Made by a program: the position numbers and the translations under genes
Shown here: positions 13 to 21,521 of the stretch, piece after piece
Numbering within the stretch: position 1 is the stretch's first letter
Layout: each line of letters opens with the position of its first letter
Notes under the pieces: model-generated
Database searches by the model: none
Seen by the model: only the letters and a program-made list of their open reading frames with translations
Told to the model about the DNA's origin: nothing
Source of the DNA: Polyangiales bacterium
GTDB taxonomy: Bacteria > Myxococcota_A > Polyangia > Polyangiales > Ga0077539
Direction of reading: 5' to 3'
Assembly (NCBI GenBank): GCA_046351515.1
Contig: JAXLYJ010000005.1
Coordinates: 306,892-370,891 of the forward strand
DNA: 64,000 nt

Positions 13-870
13 TCACCGCGCCAGACAGCCGCCCTCTCGCGCCGTGCGCTCGATCTCGCTGAACACCGCTTGCCGCATCTCGTCCGGGATCGAGTGACCG
101 ACGCCCGCAAACGACCGCAGCGTCGCGTCCATGCCTTGTCGCGCGAGCGCGTCGATCGTCGTGCGCGCGCCGATAATCGGCATCCGCTCGTCGGCCTCGC
201 CGTGAAACGCTCGCACCGTCGGTCGCATGCCCGCCGCCCGCGTCACGCCGCGGTTCTCGAGCGGCAGCCGCCCGCCGATCGGCATCACGAGCCTGACGTC
301 CAAGTTGCCGCGCGCCGCGATCGCGAACGAGACCATCCCGCCCTGCGAAAAGCCGAGGACGATCGGCTTTCCGCAGCGGCCTGCGTCGAGCTTGCTCCGC
401 ACGCGCGTGGCGATGGTCGTCGCGGCGCGGTCGATGGCACGCGCGACGGACTCTTCGCTTCCGCCGGGAAGCCACCACGCAAACCCGTTGCCGAACGACT
501 CGGTCCCGCGCATCGCGAGCACTCGCGCAGAGACCGGCGTCGCGCGCAGCCAGTTCACGAAGCTCTCGGGCGTGTCGCCGAGCCCGTGGATCGCGATGAT
601 CACCACGCGCCCCGCCGGCCCCGGATCGGGCCCGACGAGCACTTCGACGTACTCGGACTGCCCTGGCGCAGTCGGAGCGCTTGGCGCAGCGGGTTGCGGT
701 TGCGGCTGCGGTTGCGGTTGTGCGACCGGTCGCGCCGACGGCGCGGGCGTAGGTTGTGCGCTGCTCGGGCTGCGATGCTCAGCGCTGTTAGCGGGCGCTG
801 GATCGCGACACGAGACCAGTGCGACGAGAGAGAGGACAGCGATACGCGCGCTCACGGTGCGCGCATTCAA
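13..870 (-). CDS. Secreted phospholipase/carboxylesterase-family alpha/beta hydrolase (lipoprotein-like signal, (PQ)n linker)
   Basis: 285-aa ORF. N-terminal signal with Cys (LVALVSC). GFSQGG nucleophile-elbow motif and HGxxD, typical of the PLCE/carboxylesterase fold. PQPQPQPQP low-complexity linker. Confidence 0.7.
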   Translation of the reverse strand: MNARTVSARIAVLSLVALVSCRDPAPANSAEHRSPSSAQPTPAPSARPVAQPQPQPQPQPAAPSAPTAPGQSEYVEVLVGPDPGPAGRVVIIAIHGLGDTPESFVNWLRATPVSARVLAMRGTESFGNGFAWWLPGGSEESVARAIDRAATTIATRVRSKLDAGRCGKPIVLGFSQGGMVSFAIAARGNLDVRLVMPIGGRLPLENRGVTRAAGMRPTVRAFHGEADERMPIIGARTTIDALARQGMDATLRSFAGVGHSIPDEMRQAVFSEIERTAREGGCLAR

Positions 871-932: not shown

Positions 933-2564
933 ATGAAGCGATCGCTCATGGCTCGTGTTCGCATCCCTGAAACACCGACGCCGCCCGCGTCGACGCGCGC
1001 TGCATCGAGCCCGCCGCGGCTCAAGTCCGCGGTTCGACCGCGCGTCGTGCGGTCCGGGGCTTCGGCGATCGCAGCGCTGTGCTCGCTCGTCGCTGCATGC
1101 GTAGGACGAATCAGCGATCCGTCCATGGACGCGAGCGCAGATCGAGCCCTGACCGACGCGGTCGTCGACCGCTCGATCGATCGCAGCCTCGGGGACGGGA
1201 CGATCGGCGATGTGGCGGCGGACGTTGGAGAGTGCGGCGCGAGCGGCGCGCGTTGCGAGGGCCGCTGCGTCACGCTCGCGGACGACGTGAACAACTGCGG
1301 CGAGTGCGGGCGCGTCTGCGCGGTTCCTCGCGCGACCGCGCGGTGCACGAACGGAGCGTGTCGTGTTGCGACGTGCGAGACGGGCTTCGGAGACTGCAAC
1401 CTCGACCCGACGGACGGCTGCGAATCGTGGCTCGGATCCACGGTCAACTGCGGGCGATGCGGTAACGTGTGTGACGTCGCGAGGCCGTTCTGCGACGAGG
1501 CGCAGCGCGTGTGCAGCACGGGTTGCGACGTTGGGCTCGCGCGTTGCGGCGCGCTCTGCGTCGACACCCGCGCGAGCGTCGAGCACTGCGGAGGTTGCTC
1601 GCGCGCGTGCTCGTTCGCCAACGCGACGGCGCGGTGCGACGCGGGCCGCTGCGCGCTCGCCGCGTGCAATCCGGGCTTCGCAGACTGCGACGCAAACGCC
1701 TCCAACGGCTGCGAAACCGCCCTGGGAACGCCCACCAACTGCGCGCGTTGCGGCGACCGCTGCGACGCCACGACGCCCGTGTGCGACCTCGTCGCGCGAA
1801 GCTGCACCAACGGCTGCTCTGCGCCGACCACCCGCTGCGGCGGGCTGTGCGTGGACCGCGCGAGCTCCATCGATCACTGCGGCGCGTGCGACAACCGCTG
1901 TCTCTATCTCAACGCAACGGCGCGCTGCTCGAGCGGGACGTGCTCGATGGACGCTTGCCTCGTCGGCTACTCGGACTGCGATCGCAGCGCGGCCAACGGC
2001 TGCGAGGTCGAGACCGCGCGCTCGCTCTCCAACTGCGGCCGCTGCGGACAGCTGTGCGCGCCGGCCAACGCCGTCGCCGTGTGCTCGAGCGGACTGTGCG
2101 CGTACTCCTCGTGCAACGCGGGCTTCGCCGACTGCGATCGCAACGTGGCCAACGGCTGCGAGACCTCGCTCTCGACCAGCGCAACCCACTGCGGCGCCTG
2201 CGGCAACACGTGCAGCCCCATCAACGCGACCGCGCGCTGCGTCGGCGGAGCGTGCTCGTACAGCGCCTGCAACGCGGGCTTCGGAGACTGCGATCGCAAC
2301 GCCGCCAACGGCTGCGAGACCTCGATCGCCTCGTCGCTCACGCACTGCGGCGCCTGCGGACGCCCGTGCGTCGTGCCCCACGCGATCGCGCAGTGCGCCG
2401 GGGGGCGCTGCGACTACCGAGAGTGCCTTGCGCCGTACGCAGACTGCGATGGTGACCGCTCGAACGGCTGCGAGACGGACACCACGTCCTCTGCGCAGCA
2501 CTGCGGAGCGTGTGGCACACCGTGCGCCGCGCCTCGCTCGTGCCTCGCTGGAATCTGCCGTTGA
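933..2564 (+). CDS. Secreted cysteine-rich tandem-repeat protein (about 48-aa 8-Cys modules, HCGxCGxxC...GFxDCDxNxxNGCE)
   Basis: ORF 819..2564. The first ATG (933, MKRSLMARV) precedes a hydrophobic lipobox-like segment (SLVAACVG). It contains at least 10 tandem modules with invariant Cys spacing and recurring CGxCG, NATARC and NGCE(T) motifs. Confidence 0.65.
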   Translation: MKRSLMARVRIPETPTPPASTRAASSPPRLKSAVRPRVVRSGASAIAALCSLVAACVGRISDPSMDASADRALTDAVVDRSIDRSLGDGTIGDVAADVGECGASGARCEGRCVTLADDVNNCGECGRVCAVPRATARCTNGACRVATCETGFGDCNLDPTDGCESWLGSTVNCGRCGNVCDVARPFCDEAQRVCSTGCDVGLARCGALCVDTRASVEHCGGCSRACSFANATARCDAGRCALAACNPGFADCDANASNGCETALGTPTNCARCGDRCDATTPVCDLVARSCTNGCSAPTTRCGGLCVDRASSIDHCGACDNRCLYLNATARCSSGTCSMDACLVGYSDCDRSAANGCEVETARSLSNCGRCGQLCAPANAVAVCSSGLCAYSSCNAGFADCDRNVANGCETSLSTSATHCGACGNTCSPINATARCVGGACSYSACNAGFGDCDRNAANGCETSIASSLTHCGACGRPCVVPHAIAQCAGGRCDYRECLAPYADCDGDRSNGCETDTTSSAQHCGACGTPCAAPRSCLAGICR

Positions 2565-2631
2565 TTCGGCGTTCAACGCGCGGCGCGCGTTGAGCCCGCC
2601 GCGCGCGATCGGTATCGTTCGGGACGCTGAG

Positions 2632-4446
2632 ATGTCTTTTCTCGTTCGAGCATCGTCGCGCGGGTTCGCGGGCGCTTCGCGTCGCGCGTCGCTGCGGTCG
2701 GTCGCCTCGGCGGCGCTCTTCGCGCTCGCCCACTGCGCGCTTCCTCACGCGGCCTTTCGCACAGACGCCGAGGTCTCGGACGGGACGCTCGCCGACGGAC
2801 CGTGCGGAGCCGGCTTCGTTCGTTGTGGAACGCAGTGCGTCTCGATCAACGTCGACCCGTCGAACTGCGGCGCGTGCGGCAACGGCTGCTCCGTCGCCAA
2901 CGCCGTCGCTCGATGCACCGGCGGAGCGTGCGGCGTCGAGCGCTGCCTCGACGGCTTCGGCGACTGCGACAACAACGCCGCCAACGGCTGCGAGACGCGG
3001 CTCGACTCGACCGATCACTGCGGCGCGTGCGGGCGTCGCTGCGACGGGAGCACGCCCAACTGCGACGCGCTCACCCGCGCGTGCGTGACGGGCTGCTCGC
3101 CGCAGCAAACACGGTGTCAGGGCGCGTGCGTCAACCTCCTCAGCGACCCATCCAACTGCGGCAGTTGCAGCAACGCGTGCTCGCTGCCCAACGCGACCGC
3201 GGGATGCTCTGCGGGCGCGTGCGTGATCGCCTCGTGCCTCGACGGATTCGCGGACTGTGACGGAAACGCGGCCAACGGCTGCGAGGTCACGCTCGGCACC
3301 GCGTCCAACTGCACGCGCTGCGGCGACGCATGCAGCGGATCGACGCCGGTGTGCGGCGGTCGCGCCGCGGGATGCGCCAGCGGATGCACGGGCAGCACCG
3401 TGCGCTGCGCAATGGACTGCGTCGACGTCACCACGAGCAGCGCCCACTGCGGTCGCTGCAACAACGCGTGCGTCCTGCCCAACGCCACCTCCTCGCGCTG
3501 CGAAGGCGCCGTTTGCCGTCCGACCACGTGCGCCGCCGGCTTCGGTGACTGCGACGGCAATCCGCTGAACGGCTGCGAGACGGACCTGCGCACCTCGACG
3601 ACCCACTGCGGAGCCTGCGGCGCGGGCTGCGCGCCGCCCAACGCGACCGCGCGATGCTCGATGGGCATGTGCTCGTTCTCGAGCTGCAACGCAGGCTTCG
3701 CCGACTGCGATCGCATCGTCTCCAACGGCTGCGAGACCAACACGAACACGAGCATCACCCACTGCGGCGCGTGCAACGCGGCGTGCACTCCCTCCAACGC
3801 GACCGCCGTTTGCTCTGGCGGATCGTGCGGGTACGGCGTCTGTTCGGCCGGCTTCGCCAACTGCGACGGCGTCGCGCGCAACGGGTGCGAGGTCGACACA
3901 CGCATCTCGCTCACCAACTGCGGGGCCTGCCGCGTCGATTGCCGACGCCCTCACGCGAGCACCACCTGCGAGAGCTCAGCGTGCGTGCTCGGCGCCTGTG
4001 ATCCCGGCTTCGGCAACTGCAACATGATCGCAGCGGACGGCTGCGAGGCGGACTTCGCGACCAGCGTGCTGCACTGCGGAGGCTGCGGCAACGCGTGCCT
4101 CAGCCGGCCCAACTCGACGCCCCTTTGCGCTTCTGCAGCGTGTACGTTTCGGTGCGTCGCGGGCACCGGCGACTGCAACGCGATGCCCGCGGATGGCTGC
4201 GAATCGTTGCTCAACGACCTCGGCAACTGCGGCGCCTGCGGACGGACGTGCGCGTTGGCCAACGCGACCGCTTCGTGCTCGACCAAGGCGTGCTTGATCG
4301 TGAGCTGCGACCCAGGCTTCGCCGACTGCAACGGCCGCCCCGCGGACGGCTGCGAGACGCCGCTCGGCACCGCGATGCACTGTCTTTCGTGCGGCAACGC
4401 GTGCACCGCCGCACAGACGTGCACGAGCGCCGGCTGCCGCCCCTGA
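2632..4446 (+). CDS. Secreted cysteine-rich tandem-repeat protein, paralog of 933..2564
   Basis: In-frame ATG at 2632 (MSFLVRASS...) inside the 1363..4446 ORF, whose upstream part is a frame artifact. Signal-like N-terminus (AALFALAHCALP). About 12 repeats of the same 8-Cys module (NCGACG...NGCE). Confidence 0.65.
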   Translation: MSFLVRASSRGFAGASRRASLRSVASAALFALAHCALPHAAFRTDAEVSDGTLADGPCGAGFVRCGTQCVSINVDPSNCGACGNGCSVANAVARCTGGACGVERCLDGFGDCDNNAANGCETRLDSTDHCGACGRRCDGSTPNCDALTRACVTGCSPQQTRCQGACVNLLSDPSNCGSCSNACSLPNATAGCSAGACVIASCLDGFADCDGNAANGCEVTLGTASNCTRCGDACSGSTPVCGGRAAGCASGCTGSTVRCAMDCVDVTTSSAHCGRCNNACVLPNATSSRCEGAVCRPTTCAAGFGDCDGNPLNGCETDLRTSTTHCGACGAGCAPPNATARCSMGMCSFSSCNAGFADCDRIVSNGCETNTNTSITHCGACNAACTPSNATAVCSGGSCGYGVCSAGFANCDGVARNGCEVDTRISLTNCGACRVDCRRPHASTTCESSACVLGACDPGFGNCNMIAADGCEADFATSVLHCGGCGNACLSRPNSTPLCASAACTFRCVAGTGDCNAMPADGCESLLNDLGNCGACGRTCALANATASCSTKACLIVSCDPGFADCNGRPADGCETPLGTAMHCLSCGNACTAAQTCTSAGCRP

Positions 4447-4500: not shown

Positions 4501-5385
4501 ATGAGCGACGACAAATCGCCGGTGGTTTCTGCGTTCGCCGAGCTGCGCGAGTTCTTCACGCTGCGTGACGCCGAGGGGGCCGCGCGCTCGCTCGGCGAAG
4601 AGCACGCCGCCGCGAGCCGCGCGCTGCGCGTGGCCGCGCAACGGGTCCGCGCCGCGCAGAGCCTCGCGCAATCGGGGCAACGAGCGGAGGCCGAGCGCGT
4701 TCTTCGCGAGTCCATCGCCTCCCTCGACGCCGCGCGCGAACGTTGGCCGGCCATCGCGCCGCTGGTCGGCGAGCTTCCTGCGATCGAGCCCGGCGAAGAA
4801 GCCCTCGATGAAGAGATGGACGACGCCCGCGTCGAGGCGTTGGAGCGCGCCCTCGGCCAGGCGTCGCGCGCGGTCGCGAAGATCGACGGCGTCGTGGCGG
4901 ACAAGCGGGGGCGGTTGGCGGCGCGCGCGCGGCGCAACGGCGTCGTGGCCGCGGCGCTCGTCGTGGCCATCGGCGGCGCCTGGCGGCAGGCGCGGGTCGT
5001 CAAGCTCACGCCGCGCGCCTCGGCGACGTTCGGTGCGCAGTACCTGCCGGCCAACGCCACGGACGGATACATCGCGACGAACTGGCTCCTTCCCGACGGA
5101 ATGACGGGCTGGCTCGAGGTCTCCTTCGACCGCCGGCGAGTCTCGACGCTCGAGATGACCAACGTGCAGAACCTCTCGCACTACGGAGCCGCTGAGACCA
5201 CAGTCGAGTTCTACGCGGGCGAGCGAATGCTGCGATCGATGGAGGTCTCGATGCGCTCGACGGTGAACACGGCGATGCCAGCGAAGGTCAACGTTCCTGT
5301 GCGCGACCCGATCGACCGCATTCGCATCCACGTGCGAACGTTTCACGACCTCGGCGGAGGCTTGAGCGAGGTGGTCGTTCGATGA
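4501..5385 (+). CDS. Hypothetical membrane-anchored protein with C-terminal discoidin (F5/8 type C)-like domain
   Basis: 294 aa. Coiled-coil-like N-terminus, one TM segment (VVAAALVVAIGGAW). C-terminal GWLEVSF...V..L motif resembles galactose-binding-like domains. Its stop overlaps the next start (ATGA). Confidence 0.5.
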   Translation: MSDDKSPVVSAFAELREFFTLRDAEGAARSLGEEHAAASRALRVAAQRVRAAQSLAQSGQRAEAERVLRESIASLDAARERWPAIAPLVGELPAIEPGEEALDEEMDDARVEALERALGQASRAVAKIDGVVADKRGRLAARARRNGVVAAALVVAIGGAWRQARVVKLTPRASATFGAQYLPANATDGYIATNWLLPDGMTGWLEVSFDRRRVSTLEMTNVQNLSHYGAAETTVEFYAGERMLRSMEVSMRSTVNTAMPAKVNVPVRDPIDRIRIHVRTFHDLGGGLSEVVVR

Positions 5386-5912
5386 CCTCGGTGTTCTCCA
5401 AGCGAGGGCTCGCTTCGGTGCTCGCGGCGCTCGCGGCGCGGGTGCAGAAGCTCGCTCCCGAGCCGAGCGTGCCGCGCAGCGCGCTCGCGCTGGTCTTGAT
5501 TGTGTGCGCAAATATCATCGGAGTGGCGGCGCTCTACCGCACGAGCAAGCGGATCTTCTCGCCGATGCTGCACGAGCCCGAGCCGTCGCCCATCCCTCAG
5601 CGCACCTCGATGGAGCGCTTCGGAATGACCGAGACCGTGCGTCGCGAGGTGTTTCGCGAGCTCGCCGACGCTGAGATCAACGAGCGTCGCCGCGCGATCA
5701 CGATGAACACCTGGGGAGGGCACGCGTGGTCGCGCGAGGACGACCTCGGCTACGTCCAGCGCGCGCGGGCGAGGGAGGTGGCCGCTCGCTATCACCTCTC
5801 GTTGACGCAGATGTACCTCGTGCTCGACGAGGGGATTCGCAATCGATGGCCGGGCCCGGATGGACAGCCGTTGCGAGCGACGAGCGAGCCCATTTCGTTG
5901 AGGAGCGAGTGA
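5382..5912 (+). CDS. Hypothetical protein (one TM segment), translationally coupled
   Basis: 176-aa ORF. ATGA overlap with the upstream gene and TGATG overlap with the downstream gene. No recognisable motifs. Confidence 0.45.
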   Translation: MTSVFSKRGLASVLAALAARVQKLAPEPSVPRSALALVLIVCANIIGVAALYRTSKRIFSPMLHEPEPSPIPQRTSMERFGMTETVRREVFRELADAEINERRRAITMNTWGGHAWSREDDLGYVQRARAREVAARYHLSLTQMYLVLDEGIRNRWPGPDGQPLRATSEPISLRSE

Positions 5913-7771
5913 TGGCAGCGACCAAGAACGTCGTCGCGGACGAGCTCTCGGTCCACCGCGTCGCGCCCGAAGGTGGGCGGTGGACGGACTGGCTCTTCGC
6001 CGTGGTGTGGGTGCGGCTCGCGGTGTTTCTCGCGGTGCTCCACGAGGTGGTCCCGTGGCTCTTTCAAAACTCGCGCAACCTGCTCGAGTACATGGACGAC
6101 CACCAGTTTTACAGCTGGGAGATCGCCAACAAGATCACCGTCCTTCGCTACCACCAGCTCCCCGCGTGGAACCCGTACTGGTGCGGCGGCACGCTCGGCG
6201 TCGCGGCGCCCGAAGACATCTTCTTCGCGCCCGACAACCTGCTTCGGTTGTTTCTCGACGTCGGCATCGCGCGGCACCTCTCGGTGATCCTGGGCATGGT
6301 GCTCGCGGCCGAAGGGACGTTTCGCCTCTCCCGTGCCGCGGGCTCGTCGGGGTTCGCGTCGATGTGCGCGGCGTTCGTGTACGCGATCAACACGATCTTT
6401 CCGCTGTGGATCTCGAACGGGTTCTTCAACTTCATCGTCGGCTTCGGGCTCATGCCGTGGGTCGGCTGGTGCTTGATCATCGGCGTCGAGAAGCCCGCGT
6501 ATCGCCTGCTCGGCGGGTTCTTCATGGCGTGGATCTTCTTGAGCGCCGGGACGTATCCGGCGCCGTACACGCTCATGCTCGTCGGCGTTCTCACCGCCTC
6601 GCTCTCCGTCGCGTACGCGGGAAAGGGGCCCGGCCAGTGGCGACGACCGTTCGAGAGCGCGATCGTGCTCGGCCTGGTGTTCGCGCTGCTCGCGGCGGCG
6701 AAGTTCGTCCCGCTGATGCTCTTTCTCAAGCAGTTCAGCCGCACGTGGAACCCGATCGAGTCGTTCTCCGCGCAGACGATCCTCGCGAATTTCACCGTCC
6801 TGCACGCGCCCGTCCTCGTGCTCGCGGGGCTCGCGCCGCTCACCCGTGATCGTTGGGCGGTGATCTTCACCATCGCGATCGGCGTATTCTTCGTGATGGC
6901 GATGGGCGACTTCGACCCGGTCGCGCCGTATCACTTGATCAAACAAGTCCCGCTCTTCAAGCAGCTGCGCTCGCCCGAGCGGCACGTGATCTTGGTGTTC
7001 TTGTTCGTCGCGCTGAGCGCCGCGCGCACGATCACCGCGATCGAAGACTGGATCCCGCGGTTTCTCTCTTCGATCGTCGCTCGCAAGCCGCTCGAAGAGC
7101 TGCCCGCTCCGCTTCGCTTGTCCTTCGTCGCCGCGGGGACGCTCGCCGTCGCGCTCGCGTTCGGCCCGAAGTTCGTCGACCTCGTGAAGAGCTGCGGTCC
7201 CACGTACGCGACCGTGCTCTACACCTTCGAGCCGCCGCGTCGCTTCGAGCAGGACTTTCGACAGCACCGCGGAAACCGCCGGGACGGCCACGTCTTTCCC
7301 GCGATGAACATGGGCTCGATCTACTGCATCACCGGCATCCCCGTGCCCGAGTCCCCAGCGCTGCGCGCAGACCTCGCGCAAGAAGAGTTCGCGCTAGATC
7401 CGACCAGCGCCACGGTCCGGCGGCTCTCGTGGTCGCCCAACGAGATCGTCCTCGACGTCAACGCCTCGCGCCGCGCTCGCGTGATCGTCAACCAGAACCA
7501 CCATCACCATTGGCGCAGCAGCGTCGGGACCGTCGTCTCGCACGAGCGACTGCTCGCCGTGGATGTTCCGCCGGGACACCACCGGTTGGTCCTTCGCTTC
7601 GTCGACCGCGCGCTGCAGCTCTCGGTCACCGTGTCCGTGCTGACCTTGCTCGCGCTGATCGCCTTCGCGAGCTACGCGACCGCGCGCTGGGCGAGGGCGT
7701 GGATCACCGCGCTGCGCGGCGCGCTCTTCTCCGCACCCAAACCCACGAACAACGAGGAGCCCGGCGCGTGA
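5912..7771 (+). CDS. Polytopic integral membrane protein (YfhO/GT-C-like putative glycosyltransferase, 10 or more TM segments plus periplasmic C-domain)
   Basis: Internal ATG at 5912 (MAATKNVV) in ORF 5726..7771. Many hydrophobic helices with W, F and Y-rich loops. C-terminal soluble domain, then a final TM segment. Architecture resembles YfhO and ArnT families. Confidence 0.55.
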   Translation: MAATKNVVADELSVHRVAPEGGRWTDWLFAVVWVRLAVFLAVLHEVVPWLFQNSRNLLEYMDDHQFYSWEIANKITVLRYHQLPAWNPYWCGGTLGVAAPEDIFFAPDNLLRLFLDVGIARHLSVILGMVLAAEGTFRLSRAAGSSGFASMCAAFVYAINTIFPLWISNGFFNFIVGFGLMPWVGWCLIIGVEKPAYRLLGGFFMAWIFLSAGTYPAPYTLMLVGVLTASLSVAYAGKGPGQWRRPFESAIVLGLVFALLAAAKFVPLMLFLKQFSRTWNPIESFSAQTILANFTVLHAPVLVLAGLAPLTRDRWAVIFTIAIGVFFVMAMGDFDPVAPYHLIKQVPLFKQLRSPERHVILVFLFVALSAARTITAIEDWIPRFLSSIVARKPLEELPAPLRLSFVAAGTLAVALAFGPKFVDLVKSCGPTYATVLYTFEPPRRFEQDFRQHRGNRRDGHVFPAMNMGSIYCITGIPVPESPALRADLAQEEFALDPTSATVRRLSWSPNEIVLDVNASRRARVIVNQNHHHHWRSSVGTVVSHERLLAVDVPPGHHRLVLRFVDRALQLSVTVSVLTLLALIAFASYATARWARAWITALRGALFSAPKPTNNEEPGA

Positions 7772-8229
7772 GCGACCACCCCTTTCGGTGCCTGTTTCGC
7801 GTGCGGTTCGCCGAGGTCGACGCGCAGCGAATCGTCTTCAACTCGCGCTACGGCGAGTACACCGACCTCGTCGCTGGCGAGCTGTTCTGCGCGATGTTCT
7901 CGGTCTCATCCGCGCGAGACACGATCGACACGCGGCTGGTGAAGCAGACCACGCAGTGGCGTCGACCTGCGCGCTTCGACGACGTGCTCGAGGCGCGCGC
8001 GTGGCCGAGCCACATCGGCACAAGCTCGTTCACGATTCGCACTGAGTTTCGTCGCGAAGGCGAAGAACAGCTGCTCGTCGAGGTCGAGACCGTGTACGTC
8101 GCGATCGACTCCGAAGGCATCGGCTCGCGGCCGCTCAGCGAGCACGAGCGCGCGTGCATTCACGGGGGAGCGCGCGGAGTCGTCGTCGACCTCTCGGGCC
8201 CGCGACGAAGCGCCCTCGTCGAGCGCTGA
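7768..8229 (+). CDS. Acyl-CoA thioesterase, 4HBT/hotdog fold (YbgC/FadM-like)
   Basis: GTG at 7768 overlaps the upstream stop (GTGA). Protein FRCLFRVRFAEVDAQRIVFNSRY...TVYVAID is the classic 4HBT motif (RVxxxDxD...vfn). Confidence 0.7.
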   Translation: MSDHPFRCLFRVRFAEVDAQRIVFNSRYGEYTDLVAGELFCAMFSVSSARDTIDTRLVKQTTQWRRPARFDDVLEARAWPSHIGTSSFTIRTEFRREGEEQLLVEVETVYVAIDSEGIGSRPLSEHERACIHGGARGVVVDLSGPRRSALVER

Positions 8230-8278: not shown

Positions 8279-8758
8279 TCAGAGCAGCGCGGCGATGTCC
8301 TTCTCGATGGCCTCGGGCGTGTCGTTCGGCCCGTAGCGACGAACGATCTTGCCGCTGCGGTCGATCAAGAACTTCGTGAAGTTCCACTTGATCGACTCGG
8401 TGCCGAGCAGGCCGGGCGCCTCGTGCTTGAGGTATTGGTACAGCGGCGCCGCGGTAGGACCGTTGACGTCGATCTTCGAGAACATCTTGAACGAGACGCC
8501 GTAGTTGCGCTCGCAGAACGTCGCGATCTCGTCCGCGCCGCCCGGCTCCTGCTGCCCGAACTGATTGCAAGGAAAGCCCAGGATCTCGAGCCCCTTGTCG
8601 TTCAGCTTCTTGTGCAGCGCCTCGAGGCCCTTGTACTGCGGCGTGAACCCGCACTTGCTCGCGGTGTTCACCACGAGCAGGACCTTGCCTTCGAACTGCT
8701 TGAAATCAACGGGGCGACCGGTCAGGTCGTCCATCGTGAACTCGTGAATCTTCGCCAT
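8279..8758 (-). CDS. gpx: Glutathione peroxidase
   Basis: 159 aa. Motifs VVNTASKCGFTPQY and LGFPCNQFGQQEPG, with WNFTKFLIDRSGKIV, are diagnostic Gpx/BsaA signatures. Confidence 0.9.
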   Translation of the reverse strand: MAKIHEFTMDDLTGRPVDFKQFEGKVLLVVNTASKCGFTPQYKGLEALHKKLNDKGLEILGFPCNQFGQQEPGGADEIATFCERNYGVSFKMFSKIDVNGPTAAPLYQYLKHEAPGLLGTESIKWNFTKFLIDRSGKIVRRYGPNDTPEAIEKDIAALL

Positions 8759-8818: not shown

Positions 8819-9052
8819 TTAGCCGGACTTCTTGCGCGCTTTTTCGAGCAGCTCGCGGACGAGATCCGAGCGCGTAAACGCGGTCCCTTCATCGTCCTTC
8901 GCGCTGGTCTGCTTCTTCGCCTGCGCGTCGAGCCACTTCACCAGCGCCGAGGGAAGCGTCACGTGAACGCGCATCGGAGCGTCGATCTTGGCGGGTCGGC
9001 CAGCGCCCGGACGAGCGCCGCCATGCTTCTTCTTGGGAGTCTTGGCCTTCAT
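8819..9052 (-). CDS. Small basic DNA-binding protein, ribbon-helix-helix (CopG-like) with AT-hook-like GRP motif
   Basis: ORF 8819..9091. Likely start MKAKTPKKK. RPGAGRPAK (AT-hook-like), then RVHVTLPSALVKWLDAQA...SRSDLVRELLEKA, which is RHH-like. Confidence 0.4.
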   Translation of the reverse strand: MKAKTPKKKHGGARPGAGRPAKIDAPMRVHVTLPSALVKWLDAQAKKQTSAKDDEGTAFTRSDLVRELLEKARKKSG

Positions 9053-9116
9053 GCAGCGCACGATTGTGGCCGCTTTGGTTGATTGATGCACACGAAATCG
9101 CTGCGCGCTCCGGCGC

Positions 9117-11854: not shown

Positions 11855-11929
11855 TGGCGATCCCAACGGGACTTGAACCCGTGTTACCGACGTGAGAGGC
11901 CGATGTCCTAACCGCTAGACGATGGGACC
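11855..11929 (-). tRNA. tRNA-Glu (anticodon CUC)
   Basis: Hand-folded cloverleaf on the minus strand: GGTCCCA acceptor, anticodon loop CTCTCAC, T-loop TTCAAGT, discriminator G plus CCA. Confidence 0.8.
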
Positions 11930-11979
11930 AATTTCAGAGCGCTCCGTACCTCGAATGGTGTTCGTTGTACATTGCGATC

Positions 11980-12053
11980 TGGCTCGGGGACTAGGATTCG
12001 AACCTAGATAGACGGAGCCAGAATCCGTCGTCCTGCCGTTAGACGATCCCCGA
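11980..12053 (-). tRNA. tRNA-Gln (anticodon CUG)
   Basis: Minus-strand cloverleaf: TCGGGGA acceptor, anticodon loop TTCTGGC, 4-nt variable loop, T-loop TTCGAAT, G73 plus CCA. Resembles E. coli tRNA-Gln. Confidence 0.8.
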
Positions 12054-18103: not shown

Positions 18104-18176
18104 GCTGGCGTAGCTCAATCGGTAGAGCGCCAGTTTTGTAAACTGGTGGTTGTGGGTTCAAGTCCCGTCGCCAGCT
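18104..18176 (+). tRNA. tRNA-Thr (anticodon UGU)
   Basis: Cloverleaf GCTGGCG..., anticodon loop TTTGTAA, T-loop TTCAAGT. No encoded CCA. First gene of a thrU-tyrU-glyT-thrT-tufB-like cluster. Confidence 0.8.
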
Positions 18177-18222
18177 CTGAAACAGCAGCACGCAGCGACA
18201 CTGGGCTTGCGTGACATTTTCT

Positions 18223-18308
18223 CGGAGAGTTGCCCGAGCGGCCAAAGGGAGCAGACTGTAAATCTGCCGGCTTATGCCTACGGTGGTTCGAATCCACCAC
18301 TCTCCACC
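18223..18308 (+). tRNA. tRNA-Tyr (anticodon GUA)
   Basis: GGAGAGT acceptor, anticodon loop CTGTAAA, long variable arm (class II), TTCGAAT T-loop, A73 plus CCA. Confidence 0.85.
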
Positions 18309-18316
18309 ACTACCAA

Positions 18317-18392
18317 CGCGGGAGTAGCTCAGTTGGTAGAGCGTCAGCCTTCCAAGCTGAATGTCGCGGGTTCGAATCCCGTCTCCCGCTCC
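18317..18392 (+). tRNA. tRNA-Gly (anticodon UCC)
   Basis: GCGGGAG acceptor, anticodon loop CTTCCAA, TTCGAAT T-loop, CCA encoded. Confidence 0.85.
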
Positions 18393-18396
18393 ACAC

Positions 18397-18472
<76 letters not shown>

Positions 18473-21405: not shown

Positions 21406-21478
21406 ACGGGACTAGCTCAGTCGGTAGAGCAGCGGATTCCAAATCCGCAGGTCGTGGGTTCGAGTCCCTCGTCCCGTG
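21406..21478 (+). tRNA. tRNA-Trp (anticodon CCA)
   Basis: ACGGGAC acceptor, D-loop AGTCGGTA, anticodon loop TTCCAAA, G73. Sits in the conserved rpmG-tRNA-Trp-secE-nusG arrangement. Confidence 0.85.
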
Positions 21479-21521
21479 CAAGAATCAATACCAGTTGTGA
21501 CCCTGTAGGAGCCTCCTAGCC

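What the first reader, a model, noticed from the sequence alone, without database searches (positions are those of the whole stretch)
933..4446. Tandem paralogous secreted proteins built from a roughly 48-aa 8-cysteine module
Two adjacent genes encode about 10 and 12 copies of a module with fixed Cys spacing, (H/N)CGxCGxxCx(3-4)NAxAxCxxGxCx(4)CxxGFxDCDxNxxNGCE(T). It alternates with a second 8-Cys variant (NCGxCGxxC...C..GC...C.G.C). This does not match the classic Myxococcus DGC/CxxCxxDDGN repeat I know. It could be a new extracellular disulfide-rich repeat, with an adhesin, matrix or binding-scaffold role. High internal nucleotide similarity also makes the locus recombination-prone, so copy number may vary.
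Basis: seen in the sequence. Interest (0 to 1): 0.65.

Follow-up and report, generated by a model that had tools for sequence, protein, structure and literature searches.

The report
Tandem cysteine-rich repeat lipoproteins (STIG1-like)
Two neighbouring genes of a Polyangiales (myxobacterial) genome encode probably lipid-anchored secreted proteins built almost entirely of an 8-cysteine repeat; the repeat is real and very widespread, already sits in a named but unstudied NCBI family and partly in the plant STIG1 domain family, and has no solved structure or known function.

Summary
Window 933-2564 and 2632-4446 (+) encode proteins of 543 and 604 aa with 74 and 89 Cys. Both have the layout leader / 3-Cys starter / A-B-A-B / run of 4 or 6 A modules / 5-Cys cap. 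A is 51-53 aa and B is 46 aa, each with 8 Cys.

The family is very large: 13,724 cluster representatives, mostly Myxococcota, some Bdellovibrionota. In many members the array flanks lectin-like domains.

The recombination and copy-number idea is not supported. Modules share at most 73% nucleotide identity. Four genomes keep the same tandem pair with the same module order and near-identical module lengths.

Best reading: surface or periplasmic lipoproteins forming rigid disulfide-locked rods that act as a scaffold or adhesion stalk. The function is inferred, not shown. This is a new member of a known but uncharacterised kind, of moderate to low interest.

The parts
933..2564 (+). Gene1: 543-aa cysteine-rich repeat protein. 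Layout is leader, 3-Cys starter, A-B-A-B-A-A-A-A, 5-Cys cap. The 933 ATG gives an unusually long N-region, so the true start may lie further downstream; GTG at 1047 is a candidate.
   Evidence: ORF and translation. NF041328 109 bits and Stig1 48 bits. GC3 0.855. Orthologues P0105, L001:6367-8004, L127:4377-5969 and L128:4193-5953 carry the same module order, with module lengths identical apart from one 51-aa module in L127. Candidate start codons.
1089..1100 (+). Gene1 lipobox V-A-A-C (Cys56) at the end of a hydrophobic stretch, followed by the conserved sequence (A/V)GRI(S/G)D.
   Evidence: Read from the sequence. A hydrophobic segment at aa 38-56. The same C-(A/V)GRI(S/G)D context occurs in the orthologues P0105 and L001. 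No dedicated signal-peptide predictor was available.
1233..2561 (+). Gene1 repeat array, aa 101-543. The 3-Cys starter (Cx6Cx3C) begins at 1233. Modules are A 1296-1448, B 1449-1586, A 1587-1739, B 1740-1877, A 1878-2033, A 2034-2189, A 2190-2345, A 2346-2501, and cap 2502-2561.
   Evidence: Module segmentation and coordinates.
2632..4446 (+). Gene2: 604-aa cysteine-rich repeat protein. Layout is leader, 3-Cys starter, A-B-A-B-A-A-A-A-A-A, 5-Cys cap. It is identical to MAG Polyangiales protein U0269_09885.
   Evidence: P0001 is 100% identical. NF041328 119.8 bits and Stig1 24.7 bits. GC3 0.873. Collinear orthologues are P0002, P0007, P0027 and P0040.
2725..2736 (+). Gene2 putative lipobox L-A-H-C (Cys35), followed by the conserved motif ALPHA. 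The His at position -1 is atypical.
   Evidence: Read from the sequence. Orthologues align at this Cys with the lipobox-like sequences LGAC, SVGC, AAGC, TIAC, LSAC and LSSC, usually followed by ALPHA.
2803..4443 (+). Gene2 repeat array, aa 58-604. The starter begins at 2803. Modules are A 2866-3018, B 3019-3156, A 3157-3309, B 3310-3447, A 3448-3606, A 3607-3762, A 3763-3918, A 3919-4074, A 4075-4227, A 4228-4380, and cap 4381-4443.
   Evidence: AF2 of aa 323-490 gave pLDDT 95.5. AF2 of aa 55-198 gave pLDDT 92.9.

Best explanation
Gene1 and gene2 are an old, stably kept tandem pair of exported proteins. They are most likely lipid-anchored lipoproteins, and everything after the leader is one continuous disulfide-rich repeat array.

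- It consists of the last three Cys of one module plus the first five of the next: Cx6Cx7CE-x8-CGxCGxxC-x8-C-x4-C.
- Each array opens with a 3-Cys starter and closes with a 5-Cys cap. This gives 9 closed 8-Cys units in gene1 and 11 in gene2.
- A type-B module is a cap-like head fused to a new starter. The starter-plus-head unit is the part homologous to the C-terminal half of the plant STIG1 domain.

**Predicted shape.**
- One beta-hairpin per module bridges successive covalent units.
- The array is therefore predicted to be a stiff, rod-like, EGF-array-like stalk.
- The conserved [DN]C[DN]-x4-[ND]GCE-x-[ND] cluster may bind Ca2+. This is inference only.

**Likely role.**
- The rods would act as an envelope or surface scaffold, spacer or adhesion stalk. 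This parallels the role proposed for the unrelated Cys-rich stalk of TraA.
- In many relatives the same array flanks lectin-like binding domains.

**Shown versus inferred.**
- Shown: sequence anatomy, family membership, conservation and the confident predicted fold.
- Inferred: lipidation, disulfide pairing, rigidity, Ca2+ binding and biological role.
For: **Anatomy and Cys bookkeeping**
- Starter 3 Cys + n x 8 + cap 5 accounts for every Cys. Gene2 has 88 array Cys plus the lipobox Cys (89). Gene1 has 72 plus 2 in the leader (74).
- 98.6% of 3,613 internal modules in 265 family proteins have exactly 8 Cys.

**Family membership**
- NF041328 is above its cutoff for both proteins, and 39 of 40 pure-A segments hit it.
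- Stig1 is above its cutoff. It is confined to starter/B-containing segments: 31 of 32 of those hit, while 37 of 40 pure-A segments have no Pfam hit.

**Fold**
- AF2 gave pLDDT 95.5 with pTM 0.73, and pLDDT 92.9 with pTM 0.65.
- The models show one hairpin per module spanning Cys4 to Cys6.

**Export**
- Lipobox-type N-termini are conserved in orthologues.

**Conservation**
- The tandem pair is present in four genomes with the same module order and near-identical module lengths, at 46-62% protein identity for gene2 and 61% for gene1 against L001.

**Scaffold role**
- Relatives carry arrays of 8-16 A modules next to PF00754, PF00147, PF13385, PF01839, PF07603, PF18885 and similar domains.
- The family has 13,724 representatives, some up to 4,295 aa.
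- A stalk role for Cys-rich repeats was proposed for TraA (PMC3325183).
Against: - There is no experimental datum for any member. The held literature has nothing on MXAN_6577, NF041328 or bacterial Stig1.
- These two proteins have no binding or enzymatic domain of their own, so "stalk for what?" remains open.
- Model coordinates could not be read, so disulfide pairing rests on Cys counting, not on measured distances.
- The gene2 lipobox is atypical (His at -1), and no signal-peptide predictor was available.
- The downstream genes that look operonic here are not linked to the pair in other genomes, so context gives no functional clue.
Confidence: 0.6

Rival explanations
1. STIG1-like secreted ligand. 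The proteins, or fragments released from them, act as extracellular signalling or receptor-binding peptides, as plant STIG1/GRI do (recalled from memory, not retrieved here), rather than as structural rods.
For: Stig1 Pfam matches are above the gathering score, and 31 of 32 starter/B segments match. A sub-threshold CPL1-like match (a secreted fungal effector family) appears in 10 of 32 segments.
Against: Only profile positions 37-84 of 85 match. The bulk of each protein is A repeats that Stig1 does not recognise. The proteins are 543-604 aa with an N-terminal lipobox, not small free peptides. Relatives are multi-domain surface proteins of up to 4,295 aa.
Confidence: 0.08
2. Metal-binding or redox protein. 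The cysteines stay reduced and coordinate metals (metallothionein-like, Zn-ribbon-like or Fe-S-like) through the CGxCGxxC motifs, for metal sequestration or electron transfer in the envelope.
For: CxxCxxxC spacing is reminiscent of metal-binding motifs. One of 40 pure-A segments gave a marginal Fer4 hit (E 0.0077). Some relatives carry PF11617, recalled from memory as a putative metal-binding motif.
Against: The proteins are exported to the oxidising envelope. There is an invariant even count of 8 Cys per unit with starter and cap bookkeeping. AF2 gives a confident beta-hairpin and EGF-array-like geometry without any cofactor. The Fer4 hit is isolated and far below its threshold.
Confidence: 0.07
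3. Glycan-decorated surface layer component. The pair is the substrate of the neighbouring YfhO-like membrane protein (5912-7771) and is glycosylated at the recurrent N-A-T loops, forming part of a glycoprotein coat.
For: N-x-[ST] sequons recur in the Cys3-Cys4 loop, 4 in gene1 and 8 in gene2. The 619-aa protein with at least 9 TM segments follows on the same strand. A remote homologue of it carries PF09586 YfhO, and in L125 the family sits in a sugar-nucleotide and glycosyltransferase cluster.
Against: The three-gene module is absent next to the pair in L127 and L128, and occurs without Cys-rich genes in L123 and L125. Position 14 of the module is T in only 53% of copies, with A, S or V otherwise, and it starts a beta-strand, so a structural role is more likely. 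No oligosaccharyltransferase was identified.
Confidence: 0.07
4. Artefact. The pattern comes from spurious long ORFs in 70% GC DNA, or from low-complexity sequence, rather than from real genes.
For: High-GC DNA gives overlapping long ORFs in all six frames of this region.
Against: GC3 is 0.86-0.87 in the called frames. More than 4,500 homologues exist. Orthologues at 46-62% identity keep every Cys and nearly every module length. Curated HMM hits exist.
Confidence: 0.01

Closest known systems
NCBIfam NF041328, MXAN_6577-like cysteine-rich protein (subfamily model, 145 positions)
   Same: Both proteins score above the curated cutoff (109 and 119.8 bits against 100). They cover profile positions 18/20-144, which correspond to starter + A + B + next head. 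39 of 40 pure-A segments also hit it.
   Different: The model is the length of a small protein of about 145 positions. These proteins are 4 times longer, with 9 and 11 units. The name carries no function and no paper was found. The namesake M. xanthus protein could not be retrieved for comparison.
Pfam PF04885 Stig1 (plant stigma-specific STIG1/GRI cysteine-rich secreted proteins)
   Same: The starter-plus-head unit (C-x3-C-x6-C-x3-C-V-[DN]-x7-9-CGxCGxxC-x8-C-x4-C) matches profile positions 37-84, above the gathering score. Both are secreted Cys-rich proteins.
   Different: Only half of the profile matches. The A-type tail (CxxGFxDCDx4NGCE) is absent from the model, and pure-A arrays are not recognised. 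The host is bacterial, the proteins are multi-unit and probably lipid-anchored, and there is no evidence of ligand function.
TraA cysteine-rich stalk repeats (TIGR04201) and the Myxococcus cysteine-rich repeat TIGR02232
   Same: All are myxobacterial, exported, tandem Cys-rich repeats. The TraA repeats were proposed to form a rigid stalk presenting a binding domain at the cell surface (PMC3325183). The present arrays most plausibly work in the same way.
   Different: Neither model hits at E<=1. The Cys number and spacing differ: the TraA logo has 3 invariant and 2 semi-conserved Cys, against 8 invariant here. TraA uses a C-terminal MYXO-CTERM tag, whereas these proteins end at the cap and use an N-terminal lipobox.
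Tandem EGF / calcium-binding EGF arrays (Notch, fibrillin, NELL)
   Same: These are the best structural neighbours of both AF2 models. They share small hairpin-based disulfide modules arranged head to tail as a rod. Both also have a conserved acidic/amide cluster near a module junction.
Pfam PF21671 CPL1-like (fungal secreted cysteine-rich protein)
   Same: Weak matches occur over the B-tail/starter plus A-head region: E 0.0034 for gene1, and 10 of 32 starter/B segments at E<=0.01.
   Different: All matches are below the gathering score (17.9-19.2 bits against 27.4). This is probably the same shared STIG1-like Cys framework and is not evidence of membership.

Membership tests
NCBIfam NF041328 (MXAN_6577-like cysteine-rich protein) | Whole-protein HMM score at or above the curated cutoff of 100 bits | tested here: met
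   Gene1 scores 109 bits (E 1.8e-31) and gene2 119.8 bits (E 8.1e-35).
NCBIfam NF041328 (MXAN_6577-like cysteine-rich protein) | Near-full-length match to the 145-position profile | tested here: met
   The best stretches cover profile positions 18-144 and 20-144. Pure-A segments cover 40-144.
NCBIfam NF041328 (MXAN_6577-like cysteine-rich protein) | Size and architecture like the namesake MXAN_6577 | not testable with these tools
   The MXAN_6577 sequence was not retrievable.
Pfam PF04885 Stig1 | Score at or above the gathering threshold of 24.1 bits | tested here: met
   Gene1 scores 48 bits. Gene2 scores 24.7 bits, which is marginal. 31 of 32 starter/B-containing segments match, with a best E of 1.3e-10.
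Pfam PF04885 Stig1 | Match over the whole Stig1 domain profile (85 positions) | tested here: not met
   Only positions 37-83/84 align.
Pfam PF04885 Stig1 | The main repeat of the protein is the Stig1 unit | tested here: not met
   37 of 40 pure type-A tri-module segments have no Pfam hit at E<=0.01, and only 1 hits Stig1.
Pfam PF04885 Stig1 | Small secreted ligand that binds a receptor kinase or phosphoinositide (the plant function, recalled from memory) | not testable with these tools
   This needs biochemical testing. The size (543-604 aa) and the lipobox argue against a free small ligand.
EGF-like / calcium-binding EGF domains | Six Cys per module of about 40 aa and a match to an EGF-type Pfam model | tested here: not met
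   There are 8 Cys per 51-53 aa. No EGF family appears at E<=1 or E<=10 or in 72 scanned segments.
EGF-like / calcium-binding EGF domains | Significant fold similarity to solved EGF domains | tested here: inconclusive
TIGR02232 (Myxococcus cysteine-rich repeat) and TIGR04201 (TraA-type repeat) | HMM match to the repeat model | tested here: not met
   The NCBIfam scan at E<=1 returned only NF041328. TIGR-numbered models are in the library, as one search lists some. The presence of these two particular models was not independently verified.
Bacterial lipoproteins (signal peptidase II substrates) | A hydrophobic h-region followed by the lipobox [LVI][ASTVI][GAS]C | tested here: inconclusive
   Gene1 has V-A-A-C56, which fits. 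Gene2 has L-A-H-C35, which is atypical at -1, but its Cys aligns with LGAC, LSAC, LSSC and SVGC in orthologues. This was judged by inspection only, because no LipoP or SignalP tool was available.

The most novel reading that the evidence does not exclude
The type-A unit could be a structurally new 8-Cys fold, since it has no significant PDB neighbour. Myxococcota and Bdellovibrionota would have built it by extending an ancient STIG1-like disulfide core that they share with plants and fungi.

Polymerised into interlocked, possibly Ca2+-stiffened rods of 9 to about 70 units, it would be the main bacterial counterpart of eukaryotic EGF-type matrix arrays. It would set the reach of surface lectin and adhesion domains used in social or predatory cell contact.

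The strictly conserved 9-unit plus 11-unit tandem pair would then be a length-calibrated two-component surface spacer.
Probability: 0.2. Interest if true: 0.55.

Novelty: new member of a known kind. Interest (0 to 1): 0.33.

Why it matters
- **Scale.** The repeat is among the larger uncharacterised extracellular protein families visible here. It has 13,724 cluster representatives at 50% identity, and some proteins reach 4,295 aa.
- **Where it occurs.** It is concentrated in social and predatory bacteria (Myxococcota and some Bdellovibrionota).
- **What is missing.** It has no Pfam model for its main unit, no solved structure and no paper.
- **What a corrected unit definition would allow.**
  - A proper domain model could be built on the 3+5 Cys phase, the starter and cap logic, and the STIG1 relationship.
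  - Misannotations could be corrected. One example seen here is the UniRef name "Tryptophan synthase alpha chain" for a Sandaracinus homologue.
  - Experiments on envelope architecture and cell-cell or cell-prey adhesion could be better targeted.
- **The locus itself.** It is an ordinary, stable chromosomal member of this family. It is not a hotspot of repeat variation.

Tried and rejected
- **Recombination-prone, variable copy number: rejected.** TRF finds only one array, with 72% matches. The best module pair is 73% identical at the nucleotide level and the longest exact repeats are about 20 nt. Orthologues in four genomes keep the same module order, with near-identical module lengths.
- **Operon-based function from the downstream genes: rejected as a functional link.** The genes are the 294-aa, 176-aa and 619-aa membrane proteins and the thioesterase.
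  - The three-gene module is absent beside the pair in L127 and L128.
  - It occurs without Cys-rich genes in L123 and L125.
  - No Pfam or NCBIfam family was found for these proteins.
- **PDB sequence search.** It returned only spurious hits to the leader, at E>1.
- **Foldseek against AFDB50.** The library was unavailable.
- **The look-up of encoding contigs for the exact gene2 product.** The product is not on record.
- **Inferring disulfide pairs from co-loss of Cys.** This was impossible because 98.6% of modules keep all 8 Cys. Model coordinates are not exposed, so S-S distances could not be measured.
- **Literature searches.** Searches for MXAN_6577/NF041328, Stig1 + Myxococc*, and Myxococcota + cysteine-rich + repeat + lipoprotein gave nothing relevant.
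- **Promoter and terminator scan.** It was uninformative.


Full report
**1. What is there**

The window has 70-72% GC across this region, so long ORFs appear in all six frames. Two + strand ORFs carry the feature.
- Gene1 is 933-2564 (543 aa from the first ATG, 74 Cys).
- Gene2 is 2632-4446 (604 aa, 89 Cys).
- GC3 is 0.855 and 0.873 in these frames.
- Gene2 is 100% identical to a deposited protein, MAG Polyangiales bacterium U0269_09885.
- The two proteins are 47% identical to each other over about 500 aa.

**2. Anatomy of the repeats**

Cutting at each CxxCxxxC gives two module types.
- Type A is 51-53 aa with Cys gaps 2,3,8(9),4,4(3),6,7.
- Type B is 46 aa with Cys gaps 2,3,6,6,3,6,3.

The order of modules is:
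- gene1: leader, 3-Cys starter (Cx6Cx3C), A B A B A A A A, 5-Cys cap (C2C3C5C4C);
- gene2: the same, with six A modules in the final run.

The A pattern occurs 14 times, all inside these genes, and nowhere else in six frames of the 64-kb window.

A logo of 574 canonical A modules from relatives gives CGxCGxxC-x3-[NH][AG]T-x2-C-xxGxC-x[VIL]xx-C-xxG[FYW]x[DN]C[DN]-x4-[ND]GCE-[VT][ND][TL]. Gly41, Cys42 and Glu43 are 99-100% conserved.

The module length (48 aa), the copy numbers (10 and 12) and the word "alternates" are only approximate.

**3. The closed unit is phase-shifted (inference from counting)**

A module head has 5 Cys and a tail has 3, both odd numbers. Each array begins with a lone 3-Cys starter and ends with a lone 5-Cys cap.

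With every Cys paired and the same pairing in each repeat, the only consistent closed unit is [tail or starter, 3 Cys] + [next head, 5 Cys].
- This gives 11 units in gene2: 88 Cys plus the lipobox Cys makes 89.
- It gives 9 units in gene1: 72 Cys plus 2 in the leader makes 74.

Type B is then a cap-like head fused to a new starter. Each protein is thus three concatenated starter...cap arrays, with 1, 1 and 4 A modules in gene1 and 1, 1 and 6 in gene2.

Of 3,613 internal modules in 265 family proteins, 98.6% have exactly 8 Cys. That fits obligatory disulfides, but it also made co-loss analysis of pairings impossible.

**4. Comparison with known families**

| Test | Result |
|---|---|
| NCBIfam NF041328 (MXAN_6577-like cysteine-rich protein), cutoff 100 bits | gene1 109 bits, gene2 119.8 bits; profile positions 18/20-144 of 145 covered |
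| NF041328 on pure-A tri-module segments | 39 of 40 hit at E<=0.01 |
| Pfam Stig1 (PF04885), cutoff 24.1 bits | gene1 48 bits, gene2 24.7 bits; only profile positions 37-84 of 85 |
| Stig1 on starter/B-containing segments | 31 of 32 hit |
| Any Pfam family on pure-A segments | 37 of 40 have no hit |
| CPL1-like (PF21671) | sub-threshold only |
| TIGR02232, TIGR04201, EGF or furin-like models | no hit |
| PDB sequence search | no real match |

The module is therefore not unrecorded. NCBI curators already model it, but under a name that has no function. The plant-characterised Stig1 domain corresponds only to the starter-plus-head unit.

The held literature contains nothing on MXAN_6577, NF041328 or bacterial Stig1 domains.

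**5. Predicted structure**

| Segment modelled | Alignment depth | Mean pLDDT | pTM |
|---|---|---|---|
| Gene2 aa 323-490 (A-A-A plus next head) | 40 sequences | 95.5 | 0.73 |
| Gene2 aa 55-198 (starter-A-B-head) | 32 sequences | 92.9 | 0.65 |

- Each module shows one beta-hairpin running from Cys4 through Cys5 to Cys6, which crosses the head/tail junction.
- There are also short bridges around GF and after GCE.
- The starter forms its own short hairpin.
- Hairpins therefore tie successive covalent units together, which suggests a continuous stiff array rather than beads on a string.

Searches against solved structures gave only weak matches, all to tandem EGF arrays.
- Foldseek: best E 0.12, with TM below 0.5.

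The AFDB library was unavailable. The fold resembles EGF arrays in general style only, and no solved relative was found.

**6. Export**

- Gene1 has a hydrophobic stretch ending in V-A-A-C56, followed by GRISD. Its orthologues have LLAAC-AGRISD (L001) and AAGC-AGRIGD (P0105).
- Gene2 has L-A-H-C35 followed by ALPHA. Its orthologues have LGAC, SVGC, AAGC, TIAC, LSAC and LSSC at the aligned Cys, usually followed by ALPHA.
- This is the signature of signal peptidase II lipoproteins. It was judged by inspection only, and the His at -1 in gene2 is atypical.
- Neither protein has a C-terminal sorting tag. Both end at the cap.
- The 933 ATG gives a 42-aa N-region, so the true gene1 start may be further downstream. 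GTG at 1047 is a candidate.

**7. Distribution and stability**

- The word-index search found more than 4,500 homologues. Most are called hypothetical. One Sandaracinus member is misnamed "Tryptophan synthase alpha chain" in UniRef.
- A profile of the tri-A alignment found 13,724 cluster representatives at E<=1e-3, 8,366 at E<=1e-10 and 3,355 at E<=1e-30. Some proteins reach 4,295 aa.
- Among the best 120 homologues there are 1,204 A modules, typically 8-16 per protein. They often flank 100-400 aa of other domains: PF00754, PF00147, PF13385, PF01839, PF07603, PF18885, PF11617 and PF02412.
- The same scan also returned arrays in Bacteriovoracaceae (L004, 6 modules), Bdellovibrionales (L009, 4 modules) and a Lentisphaeria MAG (L006, 2 modules).

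The tandem pair itself is conserved in four genomes: the window, L001 (GCA_013298625.1), L127 (GCA_030694465.1) and L128.
- It sits in the same broad neighbourhood in each. Chlorite-dismutase-like and acetyltransferase genes lie upstream in L001, L127 and L128. The Abhydrolase_2 esterase lies directly upstream in the window, L001 and L128.
- The gene1-like module string is [51,46,51,46,52,52,52,52,20] in every genome. The one exception is a single 51-aa module in L127.
- The gene2-like layout is A-B-A-B-A6-cap in all four genomes. In L127 (P0040) the cap is followed by an extra Cys-rich tail.
- Protein identity to the window genes is only 46-62% for gene2 and 61% for gene1 against L001.
- Modules share at most 73% nucleotide identity (median 65%), and the longest exact repeats are about 20 nt.

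The claim that the locus is recombination-prone with variable copy number is therefore not supported. The duplication is old, and both the copies and their lengths are maintained.

**8. Context**

In the window and in L001, the following genes come after the pair on the same strand:
- a 294-aa protein;
- a 176-aa single-TM protein;
- a 619-aa membrane protein with at least 9 TM segments;
- a 4HBT thioesterase.

The three-gene module is missing next to the pair in L127 and L128. It stands alone elsewhere, in L123 and L125. In L125 it lies inside a sugar-nucleotide and glycosyltransferase cluster, and one remote homologue carries PF09586 YfhO. I therefore do not use it to infer the function of the Cys-rich pair.

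**9. Mechanism**

The best-supported reading has four parts.
- The proteins are lipid-anchored envelope or surface proteins.
- Their whole mature part is a rigid, disulfide-locked rod of 9 or 11 units.
- The rod serves as a scaffold, spacer or adhesion stalk.
- The conserved [DN]C[DN]-x4-[ND]GCE-x-[ND] cluster is a candidate Ca2+ site, by analogy with calcium-binding EGF. This is inference and was not tested.

The nearest functional precedent is the stalk role proposed for the unrelated Cys-rich repeats of TraA (PMC3325183).

The strict conservation of two different lengths in tandem suggests that the two proteins are not redundant and may work as a pair. This too is inference.

The rivals are a STIG1-like ligand, a metal-binding or redox protein, a glycoprotein substrate of the neighbouring YfhO-like protein, and an artefact. 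Each has weaker support and is listed with its tests.

**10. Verdict**

The proteins are extracellular disulfide repeats, they are not TIGR02232, and a scaffold or adhesin role is plausible.
- It is partly wrong. The repeat is not unrecorded and the locus is not unstable.
- The proteins are new members of a catalogued but functionally and structurally uncharacterised family.
- The locus itself is ordinary. The family as a whole is a reasonable target for structural and functional work.

Noticed in passing
window 4501-5385, 5382-5912, 5912-7771 (+): A three-gene module follows the Cys-rich pair: a 294-aa protein (weak sub-threshold NADase-type discoidin hint, E 0.08), a 176-aa single-TM protein, and a 619-aa membrane protein with at least 9 TM segments. 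The membrane protein belongs to a family of about 105 proteins, all annotated hypothetical, and one remote member carries PF09586 YfhO. In L125 the family sits in a sugar-nucleotide and glycosyltransferase cluster. The module is present here and in L001 but not beside the pair in L127 or L128, so it looks like a lineage-specific insertion of a putative glycan-transfer module.
   Followed up: partly
window 2866-4380 and 1296-2501 (Cys3-Cys4 loops of A modules): The loop before the hairpin carries a recurrent N-A-T, which is an N-x-[ST] sequon. There are 4 in gene1 and 8 in gene2. Family-wide, N is present in 76% of modules and T in 53%. It is probably a structural strand cap. Because a YfhO-like gene lies nearby, protein glycosylation was noted as an untested possibility.
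   Followed up: partly
L004 (Bacteriovoracaceae MAG), L009 (Bdellovibrionales MAG), L006 (Lentisphaeria MAG): Full type-A modules (6, 4 and 2 copies) occur outside Myxococcota, notably in Bdellovibrionota, the other predatory former deltaproteobacteria. MAG contamination was not excluded.
   Followed up: partly
P0121-P0127, P0142 (family members): Giant relatives of 2,000-4,295 aa have up to 26 matched tri-module stretches, which means tens of modules in one protein.
   Followed up: no
P0034, P0040, P0083 (C-termini; also L127:6001-7869): Some gene2-like relatives carry an extra short Cys-rich tail after the cap, for example CVCAGSQPLCGGVCCASTEACVTGACV. The window proteins lack it.
   Followed up: no
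window 13-870 (-): The upstream divergent gene is an Abhydrolase_2 esterase (PF02230, E 8.6e-15). It has a lipoprotein-like N-terminus (LVSC) and a (PQ)n linker. It is also directly upstream of the pair in L001 and L128.
   Followed up: partly
window 11855-12053 (-), 18104-18472 (+), 21406-21479 (+): There are seven tRNA genes: Glu-Gln on the minus strand, a Thr-Tyr-Gly-Thr cluster, and Trp 3 kb further on. From memory, this layout resembles the conserved tRNA / tuf / tRNA-Trp / secE-nusG core region. If so, the window is ordinary chromosome rather than a mobile element. The intervening genes were not checked.
   Followed up: no
window 7702-8229 (+), 8279-8758 (-), 8819-9091 (-): A 4HBT thioesterase and a glutathione peroxidase (PF00255, E 1.9e-43) follow, then a small ORF with a weak ribbon-helix-helix hint. 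The thioesterase and peroxidase are syntenic in L001.
   Followed up: partly
P0111 (Sandaracinus amylolyticus homologue): UniRef names this Cys-rich repeat protein "Tryptophan synthase alpha chain". This is an evident annotation error that may have propagated across the family.
   Followed up: no
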